Below are positions 3,074-11,275 of a stretch of DNA of 11,275 nucleotides, piece after piece. Position 1 is the first letter of the stretch. Each line of letters starts with the position of its first letter. The position numbers and the translations under genes are program-made. The notes beneath the pieces were generated by a model. It was not told the DNA's origin. It did not search any database and saw nothing but the letters and a program-made list of their open reading frames with translations. The DNA is from a virus. The DNA is taken from the UHGV virus genome UHGV-1855269; one strand, 5' to 3'.

Positions 3074-3477
3074 AGCTGGCGACCGCCCGCACCAAACATC
3101 GTGATCAGCTGATAAAATTCAGCGCCATATCGGGTGTTATTCCAGAAGCCTGCGTCAGGGTTTAGCGTCGCGCTGGTGTCATAGCTGACGCTTACCTTGT
3201 CAACGGACTTAGAGGACTGAACACCATTGGTTGAACCGCCCGGGCCGCCAACCAGCATCGCCCGGCTATCTGCCGCCCAAAGCGTCATGTAGTGCGCAAC
3301 GAACAACTCGGCAAAATACGGAAACAACTTTTTGCCGGTGACCTTTTCGCTTAGCAGCACATCGGCCAGATTCAGACGAAACTGGATTTGCGCTTCGGGA
3401 TATTTGGCAGGGTCAGCAAACTGCGGGAAGTCGCGGCGAAAATCACTTACCGCTGGCAGACTTTGATTCTTTGGCAT
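3070..3477 (-). CDS. Hypothetical head-tail connector-type protein (135 aa)
   Basis: GAGGT RBS 5 nt before the ATG at 3477. Gly-rich C-terminal half. Position is in the neck module upstream of the sheath gene. Confidence 0.4.
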
Positions 3478-3664
3478 TTTTTACCTCGTTACGCGCGTCT
3501 GTGGCTTTGCCAACGGATACTTCCGCGTGCGCACGAGTGAACCAGTGCGTGGCAACGTCTTCCTCCACTGCATGACGTCCTTTAACAAACTCGCGCCGCG
3601 AACCGTCGGGAAGCGTGAGCACAAACGGGGTATGTACGTGTATTACTGCATTATTTTTTGCCAT
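3443..3664 (-). CDS. Hypothetical small protein (73 aa)
   Basis: AAGGATG RBS before the ATG at 3664. It overlaps the next gene start by 35 nt. Confidence 0.35.
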
Positions 3665-3705
3665 CGGGTCATCCTTAATGGCCCCGCCAGGGGGCCATAT
3701 GGCTG

Positions 3706-4023
3706 TTAAATGCCATCAACGTACGAAATGGTTTCTTTGTACACTGGCTCGACTGCACCCAGCTTGCCGTAGTAGGTCGCAATCTGATACAGACCACGAT
3801 ACTGCACCGGCACGCTCTGAAGCGGAACCAGCGGGTAGCGGACGTATTTTTTATCGTTGGTGTACGCAACCATGCGATCCTTATTCCCCACACCACGGCC
3901 TTTCAGCCATTTAACCGCGCGGATATTCAGCGGAACACCGTTCTGGTGATAGCTGATGGTGTTGGTCTGAAGGTACGTCAACAGGGACTGGTTACCCGCA
4001 GATGAAACGATGATGCTGGACAA
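3706..4023 (-). CDS. Hypothetical protein, start uncertain; possibly the 3' part of a disrupted gene
   Basis: The ORF begins at TTG 4023 with no RBS. A strong RBS plus ATG sits at 4111 in another frame and hits a stop after 24 codons. See the frameshift finding. Confidence 0.3.
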   Translation of the reverse strand: MSSIIVSSAGNQSLLTYLQTNTISYHQNGVPLNIRAVKWLKGRGVGNKDRMVAYTNDKKYVRYPLVPLQSVPVQYRGLYQIATYYGKLGAVEPVYKETISYVDGI

Positions 4024-4097
4024 CAGAGCAAACTGCTCAGGTGGGATCTGCCACGCGATGCTCCACGACCTCCAGTTGAGGCCTGTAATCAGCTAAC

Positions 4098-4259
4098 TTA
4101 ACGACGCCCATGTTTCACTCCTGCTTTGGCTAGTCTGTAAACACCAACAAGGCGCTCTGCGAACGCCCTGTTATTTGCTACGGCTACCACTAATCCCTCA
4201 GGTGAATCAGGGTGTCGAATCTCTTCTTTTTCCTGGTATTTCTTACGACGTTTTGTCAT
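4098..4259 (-). CDS. Small basic hypothetical protein (53 aa, MTKRRKKYQEKEE...)
   Basis: ATG at 4259 preceded by an AGGAG RBS. It sits between cII and the structural block, where lambda would have the start of O. No recognisable similarity. Confidence 0.3.
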   Translation of the reverse strand: MTKRRKKYQEKEEIRHPDSPEGLVVAVANNRAFAERLVGVYRLAKAGVKHGRR

Positions 4260-4337
4260 AATTACTCCTGTGGATTGATCCAGTCTTTCTACATCAGGCC
4301 TCGAAGAATTCGCCGTTCTTCGGGGCTTTTTCTTTTG
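4260..4337 (+). ncRNA. oop: Candidate oop-like antisense RNA overlapping the 3' end of cII
   Basis: A plus-strand intrinsic terminator lies inside the cII 3' end, antisense to cII, as for lambda oop. The 5' end is only estimated from an 80-nt length expectation. Confidence 0.35.
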
Positions 4338-4572
4338 TCAGCATTCTGGCTACTTTCTTAGCCAGTTCCGCCAACTCCTCGTCTTCAACACCCCATTCAA
4401 GAACAGCCAGAAGCATTCCCATTTTGGGGATGAAGCTATCTTTCCATCGCGAAATTTGCGATTCATTAATCCCTAACGCGTCGGCAACCTTTCGCTGACC
4501 ACGTACAGCAATTCGATTCAGGATGTTGCTTGTAATTGCATTCGCTTTCTTGCGAGTACTTGTAAGTTGCAT
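4294..4572 (-). CDS. cII: CII-like transcriptional activator (92 aa)
   Basis: The translation aligns with lambda CII across the HTH and the conserved ESQISRWK and MLLAVLEWGV segments. Start chosen at the internal ATG 4572 with an AAGGAAA RBS. It is not identical to lambda CII. Confidence 0.85.
   Translation of the reverse strand: MQLTSTRKKANAITSNILNRIAVRGQRKVADALGINESQISRWKDSFIPKMGMLLAVLEWGVEDEELAELAKKVARMLTKEKAPKNGEFFEA
4299..4336 (+). terminator. Rho-independent terminator (10-bp stem with one mismatch, 7-nt loop, T-rich tail)
   Basis: cctcgaagaa-ttcgccg-ttcttcgggg followed by ctttttctttt. It is functional only on the plus strand, because the T-tract follows the stem only there. Confidence 0.55.
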
Positions 4573-4651
4573 ATGTAAGTATTTCCTTAGATAACAATTG
4601 ATTGAATGTATGCAAATAAATGCATACACCATAGGTGTGGTTTAATTTGAT

Positions 4652-4683
4652 GCCCTTTTTCAGGGCTGGGATGTGTAAGAGCG
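4652..4683 (-). promoter_or_regulatory. nutR: nutR site (boxA CGCTCTTA, boxB GCCCTGAAAAAGGGC)
   Basis: The reverse complement reads cgctcttacacatcccagccctgaaaaagggc. This matches the lambda nutR boxA/boxB arrangement and lies just downstream of cro. Confidence 0.8.
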
Positions 4684-4691
4684 GGAATGTC

Positions 4692-6044
<1,353 letters not shown>

Positions 6045-6094
6045 TCCCCACCTCAATCTCGCTAACCAAAAAACAAACTATTTTCCGTTTAAAA

Positions 6095-6162
6095 ACAATG
6101 GAGTTTGTTTTTCATGCCCCTTTTTACAATATTTCTTGTTTACAACATACAATCTTTCTTGT
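6095..6162 (+). promoter_or_regulatory. OL3-OL2-OL1 operators overlapping the PL promoter
   Basis: Three 14-bp ACAA-N6-TTGT sites: 6095-6108 acaatggagtttgt, 6126-6139 acaatatttcttgt, 6149-6162 acaatctttcttgt. They lie about 45 nt upstream of nutL. Exact -35/-10 hexamers not assigned. Confidence 0.8.
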
Positions 6163-6207
6163 AATTTTAAGCCATCAGCAGGACGCACTGACCACCATTG
6201 AAGGTGA

Positions 6208-6238
6208 TGCTCTTAAAAATTAAGCCCTGAAGAAGGGC
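6208..6238 (+). promoter_or_regulatory. nutL: nutL site (boxA-like TGCTCTTA, boxB GCCCTGAAGAAGGGC)
   Basis: tgctcttaaaaattaagccctgaagaagggc; the boxB hairpin matches lambda nutL. It lies about 160 nt upstream of the N start. Confidence 0.85.
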
Positions 6239-6396
6239 AGCATTCAAAGCAGAAGGCTTTGGGGTGTGTGATACGAAACGAAGCATTGGCCGGAAGTGCG
6301 AATCCGGATTAGCTGCAAATGAGCCAATCGTGGGGTGTTTTCGTTCAGGACTACGACTCACACACACCACCAAAGCTAACTGACAAGAGAATCCAG

Positions 6397-6729
6397 ATGG
6401 ATGCACAAACACGCCGCCGCGAACGTCGCGCAGAGAAACAGGCTCAATGGAAAGCAGCAAATCCCCTGTTGGTTGGGGTAAGCGCAAAACCAGTTAACCG
6501 CCCTATTCTCTCGCTGAATCGCAAACCGAAATCACGAGTAGAAAGCGCACTAAATCCGATAGACCTTACAGTGCTGGCTGAATACCACGAACAGATTGAA
6601 AGCAACCTGCAACGTATTGAGCGCAAGAATCAGCGCACATGGTACAGCAAGCCACGCAGTGAAATGGGTGTGACTTGTGTTGGTCGCCAGAAGCAACGCG
6701 GAAAATCAATTCCAGCTTATTACGATTGA
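6397..6729 (+). CDS. N: Antitermination protein N, lambda type (110 aa)
   Basis: The translation from ATG 6397 (MDAQTRRRERRAEKQAQWKAANPLLVGVSAKPVNRPILSLNRKPKSRVESALNPIDLTVLAEYH...) matches lambda N, including the arginine-rich boxB-binding motif. The C-terminus diverges. Confidence 0.9.
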   Translation: MDAQTRRRERRAEKQAQWKAANPLLVGVSAKPVNRPILSLNRKPKSRVESALNPIDLTVLAEYHEQIESNLQRIERKNQRTWYSKPRSEMGVTCVGRQKQRGKSIPAYYD

Positions 6730-6737
6730 GGTGAGCC

Positions 6738-6875
6738 ATGCTCAAGAAAGTCAAACGTCGACTTTACAAAGAAGGTAGATATTCATGCCAGTTGCCAAAA
6801 TGCGACACAACAAAATGGAGTGTCGATGATTGGTGTAACTGGATAGATAGATACGGAACTTGGTGGGATAAATAA
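6738..6875 (+). CDS. Small Cys-rich hypothetical protein (45 aa), in the slot lambda uses for ral
   Basis: ATG 6738 with a GAGGTGA RBS immediately after the N stop. Four Cys (C-x4-C, then two more) suggest a zinc-ribbon-like fold. Below the ORF-track length cut-off. Confidence 0.4.
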   Translation: MLKKVKRRLYKEGRYSCQLPKCDTTKWSVDDWCNWIDRYGTWWDK

Positions 6876-6929: not shown

Positions 6930-7400
6930 ATGACAAAATCATGGAGCGTACCTTTTCCTGAATCAGAAACTGAACATGATGGAATGCCTGTTTTCTGGAG
7001 ATTCCAGGCGACAGTTGAAGAAGATGGGATAAAAATATTCGCACTTCAATATATAGCTTTTCATCAGACAGAGCATTATGCATGGTTGGTTCCTGCGCAT
7101 TGGATTGTTGATTTTAAACCAGCACCAAATCAGTGGTTACAGGAATGGAAACAAAAGAGAAATAGATATGCAATTAAGAAAGTAGCAAAAAATGCAGAAA
7201 GATCTTTTGCATTCCCAACGAAGAAACTTGCCATTGAAAGTTTATTGCGCCGGAAGAAATACCATTTAATGAGAATCAAACAAGATTTGGCTGTTGTATC
7301 AACTCTTGTTGATGGGATGAAGAATATTGATACATCAACACCAGATATTGAATATAACTTTGGACACAACCAAGAAACAGAAAATTGGGTATTTTATTAG
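6930..7400 (+). CDS. Hypothetical protein (156 aa) in an AT-rich insert
   Basis: GAGGTGAG RBS before the ATG at 6930. The local sequence is visibly more AT-rich than the flanks. No TM segments or known motifs recognised. A plus-strand terminator follows. Confidence 0.6.
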   Translation: MTKSWSVPFPESETEHDGMPVFWRFQATVEEDGIKIFALQYIAFHQTEHYAWLVPAHWIVDFKPAPNQWLQEWKQKRNRYAIKKVAKNAERSFAFPTKKLAIESLLRRKKYHLMRIKQDLAVVSTLVDGMKNIDTSTPDIEYNFGHNQETENWVFY

Positions 7401-10296: not shown

Positions 10297-10322
10297 GCCG
10301 AAATACTCTGGGAGCAGTGGAA

Positions 10323-10751
10323 ATGAAACGCACACCATTTTACCGCAGACCAGGTAAGGCCGGGAAATTCTCCGGACTCCGCGAGCGCGTTATCTGGATG
10401 ATTCAGACGCGCGGTCGCCCGGTAACTGGCAGCGAAATCGCAGAGAAATTCGGCGTAACGCTCATCGAATTTAACCGTGTCGCGAACGGCCTGACCAGAG
10501 GCGAAGGGCGCATTGCACAGCTGGTTACATCGGAAACCTGGCTCAACGAGGACGGCATCTGTGACCGCACCTTTGACCTGATCACAAAGCCAAAGGTTAT
10601 TACCCCTCAGGGTAAAACACGCCTGTTCACTCGGCGTTCTATGGCTCTGGCGGCAGAGGGTAATCGCCGGGAATGTATTGAGAAAGCAGCCCGGCGCCGC
10701 CGGCTGATTGCTGCTGGCCTTTATATCGACGAAATGGAGACGGCATTGTGA
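10323..10751 (+). CDS. Hypothetical protein (142 aa)
   Basis: ATG 10323 with GGAG upstream; the ORF track starts at GTG 10317. The Arg-rich C-terminus overlaps the downstream methyltransferase start (GTGA). Confidence 0.5.
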   Translation: MKRTPFYRRPGKAGKFSGLRERVIWMIQTRGRPVTGSEIAEKFGVTLIEFNRVANGLTRGEGRIAQLVTSETWLNEDGICDRTFDLITKPKVITPQGKTRLFTRRSMALAAEGNRRECIEKAARRRRLIAAGLYIDEMETAL

Positions 10752-11275
10752 CTGACTACGGCGGATCGAACACACCGAAAAATGAAAGAGACTACTGGCA
10801 AACGCCGATTGAAATATTTAACGCGCTCGATCTTGAGTTTGGCTTCTGGCTGGATGCTGCTGCCTCTGAACGTAATGCGCTATGCGCTCACTATCTCACT
10901 GAGCTGGATAACTCGCTGAGTCGTGAATGGTCGTCGTACGGCGCGATCTGGTGCAACCCACCCTATTCCGATATCGGGCCGTGGGTGGAGAAAGCCACCG
11001 AGCAATGTAAAGCGCAGTCCCAGACGGTAGTCATTCTGCTTCCCGCAGATATCTCTACCGGATGGTTTCTCTCCGCGATGCAGAGCGCTGATGAGATTCG
11101 CCTGATAACCGGCGGACGCATTCAGTTTGTGCCGGCGTCGGCTACAGGTAAACGGCAGAGCAACCCAAAGGACTCAATTTTGTTCATCTGGCGGCCATTC
11201 ATCACGCCAAGACGCATCATCACGTCCGTTTCGCTGAGTGAGTTAAAGCGGATCGGAACCATGGAGGCAGCATGA
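10748..11275 (+). CDS. Phage Dam-family DNA N6-adenine methyltransferase (175 aa)
   Basis: GTG start at 10748 with GGAGA 7 nt upstream. The catalytic motif NPPY (WCNPPYS) is typical of N6-adenine methyltransferase motif IV. Size fits small phage orphan methyltransferases. Confidence 0.65.
   Translation: MTDYGGSNTPKNERDYWQTPIEIFNALDLEFGFWLDAAASERNALCAHYLTELDNSLSREWSSYGAIWCNPPYSDIGPWVEKATEQCKAQSQTVVILLPADISTGWFLSAMQSADEIRLITGGRIQFVPASATGKRQSNPKDSILFIWRPFITPRRIITSVSLSELKRIGTMEAA

What the first reader, a model, noticed from the sequence alone, without database searches (positions are those of the whole stretch)
10323..11275. Orphan Dam-family methyltransferase coupled to an upstream unknown Arg-rich protein
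The NPPY-motif methyltransferase starts at a GTG overlapping the stop of the 142-aa upstream ORF (GTGA), implying coupled expression from the early-left operon. No adjacent restriction endonuclease is visible in the window, so this is probably an anti-restriction or self-protection function. The upstream partner is uncharacterised and might modulate methyltransferase activity or DNA binding.
Basis: partly seen in the sequence, partly recalled or inferred. Interest (0 to 1): 0.45.

Follow-up and report, generated by a model that had tools for sequence, protein, structure and literature searches.

The report
Ordinary prophage Dam methyltransferase, unrelated neighbour
This is a routine, already-annotated phage-type DNA adenine methyltransferase at the end of the early-left operon of a defective E. 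coli prophage, and the small arginine-rich protein in front of it is a conserved DNA-binding-like backbone gene, not a dedicated partner of the enzyme.

Summary
A 142-aa ORF (10323-10751) ends in a GTGA overlap with a 175-aa ORF (10748-11275). The latter is a full-length phage Dam (PF05869 E 7e-68; TIGR01712 190 bits) with NPPY.

- **Orphan status:** contigs carrying the identical protein show what lies past 11275: TraR/DksA zinc finger, an excisionase-like ORF, a convergent integrase, tRNA-Arg (argW) and E. coli dsdC. There is no endonuclease.
- **Likely specificity:** the enzyme is 60% identical to M.EcoVT2Dam (GATC). GATC is therefore the likely target, which the host already methylates.
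- **Upstream protein:** it is phrog_1680, basic (pI 10.7, 20 Arg), with a predicted winged helix and a long C-terminal helix.
- **Partner idea fails a control:** among 80 TraR-anchored prophage contigs, DNA-modification genes fill the slot upstream of TraR in 20 of 21 loci with phrog_1680 and 56 of 59 without it.
- **Independent occurrence:** Dam occurs in 1956 phage records, phrog_1680 in 136. Dam follows NinB, DUF1317 or an HTH gene with the same 4-nt overlap elsewhere.

Caveats: this allele carries D142 where Gly is at least 90% conserved, and the prophage has lost its replication and late genes.

Verdict: known kind, low interest.

The parts
10323..10751 (+). 142-aa basic protein, PHROG family phrog_1680 (named 'regulator' by NCBI). 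Homologue of phage phi80 PHI80_36.
   Evidence: ORF list. phrog_1680 E 1.6e-75, full length. Only a weak Pfam HTH_11 match at residues 21-46. pI 10.65, 20 Arg. 84% identical to phi80 PHI80_36.
10377..10580 (+). Predicted winged helix-turn-helix of the 142-aa protein (residues ~19-86)
   Evidence: AlphaFold2 model, mean pLDDT 73: H19-30, H36-43, H47-56 and a beta hairpin. Weak matches to MarR/AdcR, TFE and Z-alpha winged helices by Foldseek and by profile. None is significant.
10632..10712 (+). Long basic C-terminal helix (residues 104-130). It holds most of the family's invariant residues (A122, R125, L128, I129), with Y134, I135, E137, E139 just after it.
10736..10739 (+). GGAG Shine-Dalgarno, 8 nt upstream of the Dam GTG start, inside the 3' end of the upstream gene
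   Evidence: Read directly from the sequence
10748..10751 (+). GTGA: the Dam start codon overlaps the upstream stop codon
   Evidence: The same 4-nt junction occurs in 125 of 131 phrog_1680 loci whatever the downstream gene.
10748..11275 (+). 175-aa orphan phage-type DNA N6-adenine methyltransferase (PF05869 Dam / TIGR01712)
   Evidence: PF05869 E 7.3e-68, profile positions 1-167 of 169. TIGR01712 equivalog, 189.9 bits against a cutoff of 97. 60% identical to the VT2-Sakai dam product. AlphaFold2 pLDDT 85.5, Rossmann-type MTase fold.
10955..10966 (+). NPPY catalytic motif IV (residues 70-73)
   Evidence: P71, P72 and Y73 are invariant and N70 nearly invariant in 40 homologues.
11171..11173 (+). 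Codon GAC = Asp142 in the conserved N-x-K-G-S motif. Gly is present in at least 90% of 40 homologues and in all close Klebsiella relatives read. Possible hypomorphic substitution.
11272..11275 (+). ATGA: the Dam stop overlaps the start of the next gene (72-aa TraR/DksA zinc-finger protein), which lies outside the window
   Evidence: Contigs with the identical Dam have the next gene starting 4 nt before the Dam stop. PF01258 and phrog_54.

Best explanation
The 175-aa ORF is an intact-length orphan DNA N6-adenine methyltransferase of the phage 'Dam' family (PF05869/TIGR01712). It is carried by a defective lambdoid prophage integrated at argW of E. coli.

**Expression.** It is one of the last genes of the early-left (PL) operon. 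It is therefore silent in the lysogen and made early after infection or induction, when N-antiterminated PL transcription reaches it (inferred from gene order).

**Translation.** Translation starts at a GTG with its own GGAG. Ribosomes terminating on the upstream gene may also reinitiate at the 4-nt overlap (inferred).

**Activity and role.** By homology it most likely methylates the adenine of GATC on replicating phage DNA. This would top up methylation that host Dam cannot keep pace with. Progeny DNA would then be fully modified and resistant to enzymes that cut unmethylated GATC in later hosts (inferred from characterised relatives).

**The upstream 142-aa protein.** It is a separate, conserved, basic protein with a predicted winged helix (phrog_1680). 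It is a backbone gene of a subset of enterobacterial lambdoid phages. It marks the left edge of a variable slot, between the recombination genes and TraR/xis/int, that is nearly always filled by some DNA-modification gene. It is not a specific partner of this methyltransferase. Its own most likely activity is nucleic-acid binding through the winged helix, with the long C-terminal helix possibly serving oligomerisation. Its target is unknown.
For: **Family membership**
- Full-length profile matches above the curated cutoffs.
- Gap-free alignment with the VT2-Sakai dam product, with WQTP, LDAAAS, NPPYS, GWF and GR..F conserved.
- Confident MTase fold.

**Orphan status.** In contigs carrying the identical protein, the genes downstream are TraR/DksA, sometimes DUF4222, an excisionase-like 61-aa ORF, a convergent integrase, tRNA-Arg(CCU), then dsdC-dsdX-dsdA. 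The dsd flank is 100% identical to E. coli K-12.

**Operon position.** Gene order, and no promoter-like site on the + strand.

**GATC specificity**
- M.EcoVT2Dam is reported to target GATC (PMC6602927), and the window protein is 60% identical to the VT2-Sakai dam product.
- M.Phi93DAM, an NPPY-only Dam of a lactococcal 936-type phage, methylates GATC and protects against DpnII (PMC4190342). 936-type phage methylases match the window protein at about 35% identity, but M.Phi93DAM itself was not compared here.

**Rationale for the role.** P22 and lambda virion DNA is under-methylated by host Dam (PMC8022706).

**Independence of the two genes**
- Dam occurs in 1956 phage records, phrog_1680 in 136.
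- Dam follows NinB, DUF1317 or another HTH gene elsewhere.
- phrog_1680 is followed by MT-A70, D12, C5 or N6_N4 methylases, by DndB-like or TGT-like genes, or directly by TraR.
- TraR-anchored control: 20 of 21 loci with phrog_1680 and 56 of 59 without it carry DNA-modification genes.
Against: - No activity or specificity was measured. GATC is inferred from relatives at 35-60% identity.
- This E. coli allele has Asp142 where Gly is at least 90% conserved, next to the invariant Lys141. It may be weakened.
- The prophage in the window has lost its replication, lysis and head genes. The gene may no longer be under selection.
- The function of the 142-aa protein is not established. Its fold matches are weak.
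- The surveyed loci were not dereplicated and come mostly from Klebsiella, Enterobacter and Escherichia prophages.
Confidence: 0.75

Rival explanations
1. The 142-aa winged-helix protein is a general accessory or regulator of whatever DNA-modification enzyme is encoded next to it. For example, it could set the enzyme's expression through translational coupling, or bring modification enzymes to phage DNA.
For: - In the core clade (at least 78% identity), all 16 species-level genome loci, the viral contigs and phi80 carry DNA-modification genes or their remnants directly downstream. At least eight unrelated families are involved.
- The 4-nt overlap with the next gene is conserved in 125 of 131 loci.
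Against: - The slot is filled by DNA-modification genes just as often when phrog_1680 is absent (56 of 59 against 20 of 21).
- More divergent members (L047-L051) and distant homologues in phages SJM3, phiEt88 and AH07 have no methyltransferase downstream.
- More than 90% of Dam-carrying phage records lack any phrog_1680.
- A specific protein-protein modulator of eight unrelated enzyme families is implausible.
- There is no intergenic region or promoter for it to act on locally.
Confidence: 0.1
2. The methyltransferase allele is a decaying, inactive or weakened relic in a defective prophage and has no current function.
For: - G142D sits at a position that is at least 90% conserved, next to the invariant K141. 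The substitution was seen only in this E. coli allele among the sequences read.
- The prophage lacks O/P, nin, Q, lysis, terminase and head genes. The break against an intact relative is at window ~4043. Sister loci carry IS insertions.
Against: - The ORF is full length, with every other motif intact.
- The identical protein was seen on 169 contigs, including prophages that still have O and DnaB or P genes (L002-L004).
- The lactococcal Dam-like sequence aligned here, and a Pseudoalteromonas one, lack this Gly. Gly is therefore not universal in the family.
Confidence: 0.25
3. The enzyme methylates a motif other than GATC, or adenines without sequence specificity, as reported for some prophage orphan methyltransferases.
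For: - The protein is very small (175 aa) and has no separate target-recognition domain.
- Specificity can change within a family.
- No structure of the family is solved. The nearest solved fold is an RNA cap m6A methyltransferase.
Against: The family members whose specificity was found in the papers read are both reported as GATC (PMC6602927, PMC4190342). One is 60% identical. The other belongs to a phage group whose methylases match at about 35%.
Confidence: 0.1
4. The methyltransferase is half of a restriction-modification system whose endonuclease lies just outside the window.
For: None, apart from the window ending at the stop codon.
Against: All 16 look-up places carrying the identical proteins show the same downstream run: TraR/DksA, sometimes DUF4222, an excisionase-like ORF and integrase, with IS insertions in some. 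Host genes follow in all but one place (L008), where a second integrase-bearing element follows. No endonuclease appears.
Confidence: 0.01

Closest known systems
M.EcoVT2Dam (dam of Stx2 phages VT2-Sakai and 933W)
   Same: Same Pfam and TIGRFAM family, same length class. 60% identical over 94% of the protein, with a gap-free core alignment. Also an orphan enzyme of a lambdoid prophage of E. coli. Reported to target GATC (PMC6602927).
   Different: In VT2-Sakai the gene lies in the nin region of the rightward operon, between ninB and ninE. Here it lies at the end of the leftward operon. The window allele carries G142D.
M.Phi93DAM of lactococcal 936-type phage Phi93, an NPPY-only Dam
   Same: A small NPPY-only phage Dam. 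GATC methylation and DpnII protection were shown experimentally (PMC4190342). Methylases of 936-type phages match the window protein at about 35% identity.
   Different: Virulent Gram-positive phage. The gene lies between the terminase genes. The 936-type relative aligned here is shorter and lacks the NxKGS Gly. M.Phi93DAM itself was not compared with the window protein.
Dam of T1-like phages (Drexlerviridae)
   Same: Same family, about 42-44% identity. The VT2-Sakai record itself notes similarity to T1 M.T1 and HP1 Orf13.
   Different: These carry N-terminal and internal extensions and come from virulent phages. GATC specificity of T1 Dam is recalled from memory only and was not checked here.
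Phage phi80 PHI80_36 (hypothetical protein) and the downstream damL pseudogene
   Same: PHI80_36 is the 84%-identical homologue of the 142-aa protein. It has the same place in the operon, after the recombination genes and before a methyltransferase, xis and a convergent int.
   Different: In phi80 the upstream gene is exo. A 50-aa DUF1317 ORF intervenes. The methyltransferase is a frameshifted D12-class Dam, a different family.
CAPAM/PCIF1 cap-specific adenosine N6-methyltransferase domain (PDB 6irw, 6irx)
   Same: Nearest solved fold to the Dam model (Foldseek E 5e-5, TM about 0.6 on the query).
   Different: About 15% identity. It is a eukaryotic RNA cap enzyme with large extra domains. This is a resemblance of fold only, not membership.
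Controller (C) proteins of restriction-modification systems
   Same: Small HTH protein encoded just upstream of a methyltransferase.
   Different: No endonuclease is present, there is no promoter or operator region of its own, and the fold is a winged helix with a long C-terminal helix rather than a short Xre-type HTH. It also occurs without any methyltransferase. It is not a member.

Membership tests
Phage DNA N6-adenine methyltransferase 'Dam' (PF05869 / TIGR01712) | Full-length match to the family profiles above the curated cutoffs | tested here: met
   PF05869: 228 bits against a cutoff of 28.1, profile positions 1-167 of 169. TIGR01712 equivalog: 189.9 bits against a cutoff of 97.05.
Phage DNA N6-adenine methyltransferase 'Dam' (PF05869 / TIGR01712) | Catalytic (D/N)PPY motif IV | tested here: met
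   NPPY at residues 70-73. P71, P72 and Y73 are invariant in 40 homologues.
Phage DNA N6-adenine methyltransferase 'Dam' (PF05869 / TIGR01712) | Remaining conserved family blocks (WQTP, F-x-LDAAA, GWF, GR..F, N-x-K-G-S) | tested here: inconclusive
   All blocks are present. The one exception is G142D, inside N-x-K-G-S; Gly is at least 90% conserved. The functional consequence is unknown.
Phage DNA N6-adenine methyltransferase 'Dam' (PF05869 / TIGR01712) | m6A methylation of GATC | not testable with these tools
   Inferred only, from M.EcoVT2Dam (PMC6602927) and M.Phi93DAM (PMC4190342).
Orphan (solitary) methyltransferase | No cognate restriction endonuclease adjacent | tested here: met
   In 16 look-up places with the identical proteins, the upstream genes are recombination and anti-RecBCD genes. 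Downstream lie TraR/DksA, an excisionase-like ORF, integrase, then argW and dsdC in all but one place.
Type II restriction-modification system | Linked endonuclease gene | tested here: not met
PHROG phrog_1680 (unknown function; NCBI name 'regulator') | Full-length profile match | tested here: met
   E 1.6e-75, residues 1-142 on profile positions 1-141 of 141. The family comprises 64 clusters at 50% identity in 1.84 billion proteins.
Winged helix-turn-helix DNA-binding proteins (MarR, ArsR, HTH_11 and similar) | Significant sequence or fold match to a winged-helix family | tested here: inconclusive
   HTH_11 scores 17.8 bits, below its cutoff of 25. Ten of 33 family members hit PF0610-like_N weakly. 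Best Foldseek match E 0.0099, none at or below 0.001. AdcR E 0.0026 by profile. The model topology (three helices and a hairpin) fits.
R-M controller (C) protein | Own promoter and operator upstream, and association with an R-M pair | tested here: not met
   The intergenic gap upstream is 26 nt, with no promoter-like site on the + strand. No endonuclease is present.
Obligate two-gene module (142-aa protein plus Dam) | Co-occurrence beyond what the genomic position alone gives | tested here: not met
   DNA-modification genes lie upstream of TraR in 20 of 21 loci with phrog_1680 and 56 of 59 without it. Dam occurs in 1956 phage records, phrog_1680 in 136.
Non-specific prophage adenine methyltransferases (M.EcoGII / Hia5 type) | Sequence relationship to those enzymes | not tested
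Considered only as a rival for specificity.

The most novel reading that the evidence does not exclude
In enterobacterial lambdoid prophages, the stretch between the recombination genes and TraR/xis/int may be a dedicated, exchangeable 'self-modification cassette' site. About 95% of the loci surveyed carry a DNA-modification gene there, from at least nine enzyme families. These include fused C5+Dam and C5+D12 enzymes, a DndB-like protein and a TGT/DpdA-like transglycosylase.

On this reading, phrog_1680 (or alternatively DUF1317) would be a conserved adaptor gene. Its 3' end, through the conserved 4-nt overlap, would supply translational coupling or regulation for whichever enzyme is inserted.
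Probability: 0.12. Interest if true: 0.45.

Novelty: already known. Interest (0 to 1): 0.14.

Why it matters
It matters little beyond annotation. The enzyme is a routine phage orphan Dam, and public records already name it as such.

Two practical points follow:
- A methylome comparison of lysogen against cured strain would not detect it. The operon is repressed in the lysogen and GATC is already methylated by the host. The gene has to be expressed in a dam- background.
- The G142D allele offers a natural test of a conserved residue in a family with no solved structure.

The by-product is mildly useful for hunting phage counter-defence genes. It is a slot in lambdoid prophages that is almost always filled with DNA-modification genes, bordered by phrog_1680 or DUF1317 on one side and TraR on the other.

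Tried and rejected
1. **Restriction partner downstream.** Rejected from contigs with the identical protein.

2. **phrog_1680 functionally tied to methyltransferases.** This looked strong at first. Every first look-up showed a different methyltransferase family downstream. It was rejected after three results:
   - divergent and distant homologues have none;
   - the TraR-anchored control gave 95% occupancy with and without phrog_1680;
   - the 4-nt overlap is independent of the downstream gene.

3. **Controller-protein analogy.** Rejected: no promoter or operator and no endonuclease.

4. **Identifying the 142-aa protein by sequence or fold.**
   - Pfam and NCBIfam gave nothing significant.
   - A profile search of 1.84 billion proteins found only a small family of 64 clusters.
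   - PDB sequence and Foldseek searches gave only generic, non-significant winged-helix matches.

5. **Solved structure for the Dam family.** None by sequence. Only a remote fold match to CAPAM/PCIF1, so residue 142 could not be placed on an experimental active site.

6. **Terminator-like hairpin at 10699-10718, inside the 3' end of the 142-aa gene.** Not pursued. Terminator-like hits in the region are not above the shuffled expectation (11 against 6.8 +/- 2.5), and the stem encodes the conserved RRLIAAGL segment.

7. **Other dead ends.** A scan with the divergent alignment A2 failed for lack of a conserved stretch. A literature search for phi80 damL or gene 36 found nothing relevant.

Full report
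**1. Observation**

The ORF list and the sequence confirm the anatomy.
- A 142-aa ORF runs from ATG 10323 to TGA 10749-10751. It has a GGGAG Shine-Dalgarno 8 nt upstream. The alternative GTG at 10317 is too close to it.
- A 175-aa ORF runs from GTG 10748 to TGA 11273-11275.
- The two share GTGA. The second ORF also has its own GGAG (10736-10739), 8 nt upstream of the GTG.
- NPPY is at residues 70-73 of the second ORF.
- The upstream protein has 20 Arg in 142 residues and a pI of 10.65.

The last four bases of the window, ATGA, are a second overlap of the same kind with the next gene.

**2. What the methyltransferase is**

- It matches Pfam PF05869 (Dam) over the whole profile (E 7.3e-68). It also matches the NCBIfam equivalog TIGR01712 'phage N-6-adenine-methyltransferase' (189.9 bits, cutoff 97) and phrog_111.
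- The exact sequence is public under that name in E. coli, on 169 contigs.
- A tblastn search finds the family in 1956 of 50,697 phage records. These include T1-like, Vibrio and lactococcal phages.
- The window protein is 60% identical to the dam product of VT2-Sakai and aligns with it without gaps in the core. The blocks WQTP, FWLDAAAS, NPPYS, GWF and GR..F are conserved.
- M.EcoVT2Dam is reported to target GATC (PMC6602927).
- The NPPY-only M.Phi93DAM of a lactococcal 936-type phage was shown to methylate GATC and protect against DpnII (PMC4190342). Methylases of 936-type phages match the window protein at about 35% identity, but M.Phi93DAM itself was not compared here.
- GATC is therefore the most likely specificity. 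This is an inference.
- The AlphaFold2 model is confident (pLDDT 85.5). No family member has a solved structure by sequence. The nearest solved fold is the cap m6A methyltransferase CAPAM/PCIF1 (E 5e-5).

**3. A caveat on this allele**

Residue 142 is Asp (GAC, 11171-11173) within the N-x-K-G-S block.
- Gly is present in at least 90% of 40 homologues. Lys141 is invariant.
- All close Klebsiella relatives that I read have Gly.
- The residue sits at the end of a low-confidence loop, just before strand 143-148.
- The lactococcal and Pseudoalteromonas relatives aligned lack this Gly, so the effect cannot be predicted.

**4. Context and orphan status**

- Contigs carrying the identical proteins show what lies after Dam: a 72-aa TraR/DksA zinc-finger protein overlapping by ATGA, sometimes DUF4222, a 61-aa excisionase-like ORF, and a convergent integrase.
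- Next come tRNA-Arg(CCU), which is argW, and dsdC-dsdX-dsdA-emrYK-evgAS. The dsd flank is 100% identical to E. coli K-12. One of the 16 places (L008) has a second integrase-bearing element there instead of the host genes.
- There is no endonuclease.
- Upstream on the same strand are cI (the immunity region is 98% identical to Sf6 and HK446), N, cIII, kil, Erf, an SSB-like gene, Abc2 and Gp157.
- No sigma-70-like site lies on that strand between 6000 and 11275.
- The prophage in the window is defective. Homology to an intact relative (L004, which has O and DnaB) stops at window ~4043, where tail genes abut the cII side.

**5. The upstream protein**

- It is phrog_1680, full length (E 1.6e-75), and is called 'regulator' in NCBI records.
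- The family is small: 64 clusters at 50% identity among 1.84 billion proteins. The close homologues whose source is named are all Enterobacteriaceae. More distant phage hits include Erwinia and Pantoea phages.
- AlphaFold2 (pLDDT 73) predicts a disordered basic N-terminal tail, a winged helix (residues 19-86) and a long C-terminal helix (104-130). That helix carries most of the invariant residues.
- Fold and profile searches return only weak, generic winged-helix matches: MarR/AdcR, TFE and Z-alpha.
- The best reading is a nucleic-acid-binding protein of unknown target.

**6. Is it a partner of the methyltransferase?**

At first it looked so. Homologues are followed by methyltransferases of different families:

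| Locus | What follows phrog_1680 |
|---|---|
| phi80 | D12-class damL (pseudogene) |
| Klebsiella phage 2b LV-2017 | C5 methylase |
| L026-L030 | MT-A70 |
| L021 | DndB-like, MT-A70 and C5 |
| L035 | N6_N4 methylase |
| L034 | fused C5+D12 enzyme |
| L037 | fused C5+Dam enzyme |
| L044, L045 | other phage DNA methyltransferases |
| L040 | TGT/DpdA-like enzyme |

Three results argue against a specific link.

First, more divergent members (L047-L051) and distant homologues in phages SJM3, phiEt88 and AH07 have no methyltransferase downstream.

Second, the same Dam family is found without phrog_1680.
- It follows NinB in VT2-Sakai, DUF1317 in E. coli W21 and another HTH gene in Klebsiella phage GZ7, each with a 4-nt overlap.
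- phrog_1680 occurs in only 136 phage records, against 1956 for Dam.

Third, I ran a control anchored on the downstream TraR gene, using 80 viral contigs. A DNA-modification gene lies within 4.5 kb upstream of TraR in 20 of 21 loci that have phrog_1680 and in 56 of 59 that lack it.

The methyltransferases therefore belong to the slot, not to phrog_1680.

The 4-nt overlap at the end of phrog_1680 is present in 125 of 131 loci, whatever the next gene is. It shows tight operon packing and possible translational coupling, not a functional pairing.

**7. Mechanism, with shown and inferred steps marked**

- Shown: family membership, intact length and motifs apart from G142D, orphan status, operon position, the overlap and the gene's own Shine-Dalgarno.
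- Inferred: expression only after induction or infection, through N-antiterminated PL transcription.
- Inferred: GATC specificity.
- Inferred: the role. Host Dam leaves P22 and lambda virion DNA under-methylated (PMC8022706). The phage enzyme would complete GATC methylation of fast-replicating phage DNA. That would protect progeny against enzymes that cut unmethylated GATC.

In a lysogen the gene is repressed and GATC is already methylated.

**8. Comparison, novelty and score**

The enzyme is an already-annotated member of a long-known family of phage orphan Dam enzymes. The upstream gene is an uncharacterised but catalogued family. The pairing is a product of mosaic gene order.

- Novelty: already known.
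- Interest: 0.14.

The only mildly new item is the near-constant filling of the exo-to-TraR slot with varied DNA-modification genes. I record it as a side observation and as the basis of the 'novel case' (probability 0.12).

Noticed in passing
window 10323-11275 and loci L017-L221 (the region between exo/RecT/Gp157 and TraR/xis/int): In enterobacterial lambdoid prophages this slot almost always carries DNA-modification genes (76 of 80 TraR-anchored contigs). At least nine families appear: PF05869 Dam, D12 Dam, MT-A70, C5, N6_N4, phrog_757, phrog_954, DndB-like and TGT/DpdA-like. The slot is bordered by phrog_1680 or DUF1317 on one side and TraR/DksA on the other.
   Followed up: partly
window 11171-11173: Asp142 replaces a Gly that is at least 90% conserved in the N-x-K-G-S block of the Dam family. 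It was seen only in this E. coli allele among the sequences read. Possible loss or weakening of activity.
   Followed up: partly
window ~3400-4300 (breakpoint near 4043): The cII side of the immunity region (cII plus a 53-aa ORF) abuts tail genes directly. The O/P or DnaB, nin, Q, lysis, terminase and head genes present in a related prophage (L004) are missing, so the prophage is defective. Sister loci show other deletions and IS1 or IS4-type insertions (L001, L005, L007).
   Followed up: partly
L034:5575-8019 and L037:5575-7434: Single ORFs fuse a C5 cytosine methylase domain to a D12 adenine methylase (814 aa, Citrobacter) or to a PF05869 Dam domain (619 aa, Pseudescherichia).
   Followed up: no
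L051:5590-6084: A 164-aa HNH/NUMOD4 homing-endonuclease-like ORF begins with the Dam N-terminus (MTDYTGSNTPADQRDLW). This suggests an endonuclease gene replaced most of a Dam gene in this slot.
   Followed up: no
L040:5575-6327: A 250-aa queuine tRNA-ribosyltransferase-like protein (phrog_887, E 2e-94) occupies the slot instead of a methyltransferase. It may be a DpdA-type DNA deazaguanine modification enzyme.
   Followed up: no
window 4250-6750: The immunity region (cII, cro, cI, N) is about 98% identical to Shigella phage Sf6 and coliphages HK446 and Huey. The xis/int end resembles phi80, with int convergent to xis, and the prophage sits at argW next to dsdC. This is a clear mosaic.
   Followed up: partly
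window 5568-6044 and 6930-7400: Two + strand ORFs in the PL operon have no family assignment. A 158-aa (or shorter) ORF just after cI has a signal-peptide-like N-terminus. A 156-aa ORF has no Pfam hit.
   Followed up: no
window 10699-10718: A GC-rich hairpin followed by CTTTATAT lies inside the 3' end of the 142-aa gene, about 30 nt before the Dam start. It encodes the conserved RRLIAAGL segment. Terminator-like hits in the region are not above the shuffled expectation.
   Followed up: no
window 10748-11275 (model m788145a495b6): No PF05869 member has a solved structure by sequence search. The nearest solved fold to the model is the eukaryotic cap-specific m6A methyltransferase CAPAM/PCIF1 (E 5e-5, TM about 0.6).
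   Followed up: partly
cluster 2: The 90%-identity cluster holding the 142-aa 'regulator' also holds 218-aa MT-A70 methyltransferases. Chimeric ORFs join the two genes (P0071). This is probably a clustering artefact caused by read-through or fused gene calls across the 4-nt overlap.
   Followed up: no
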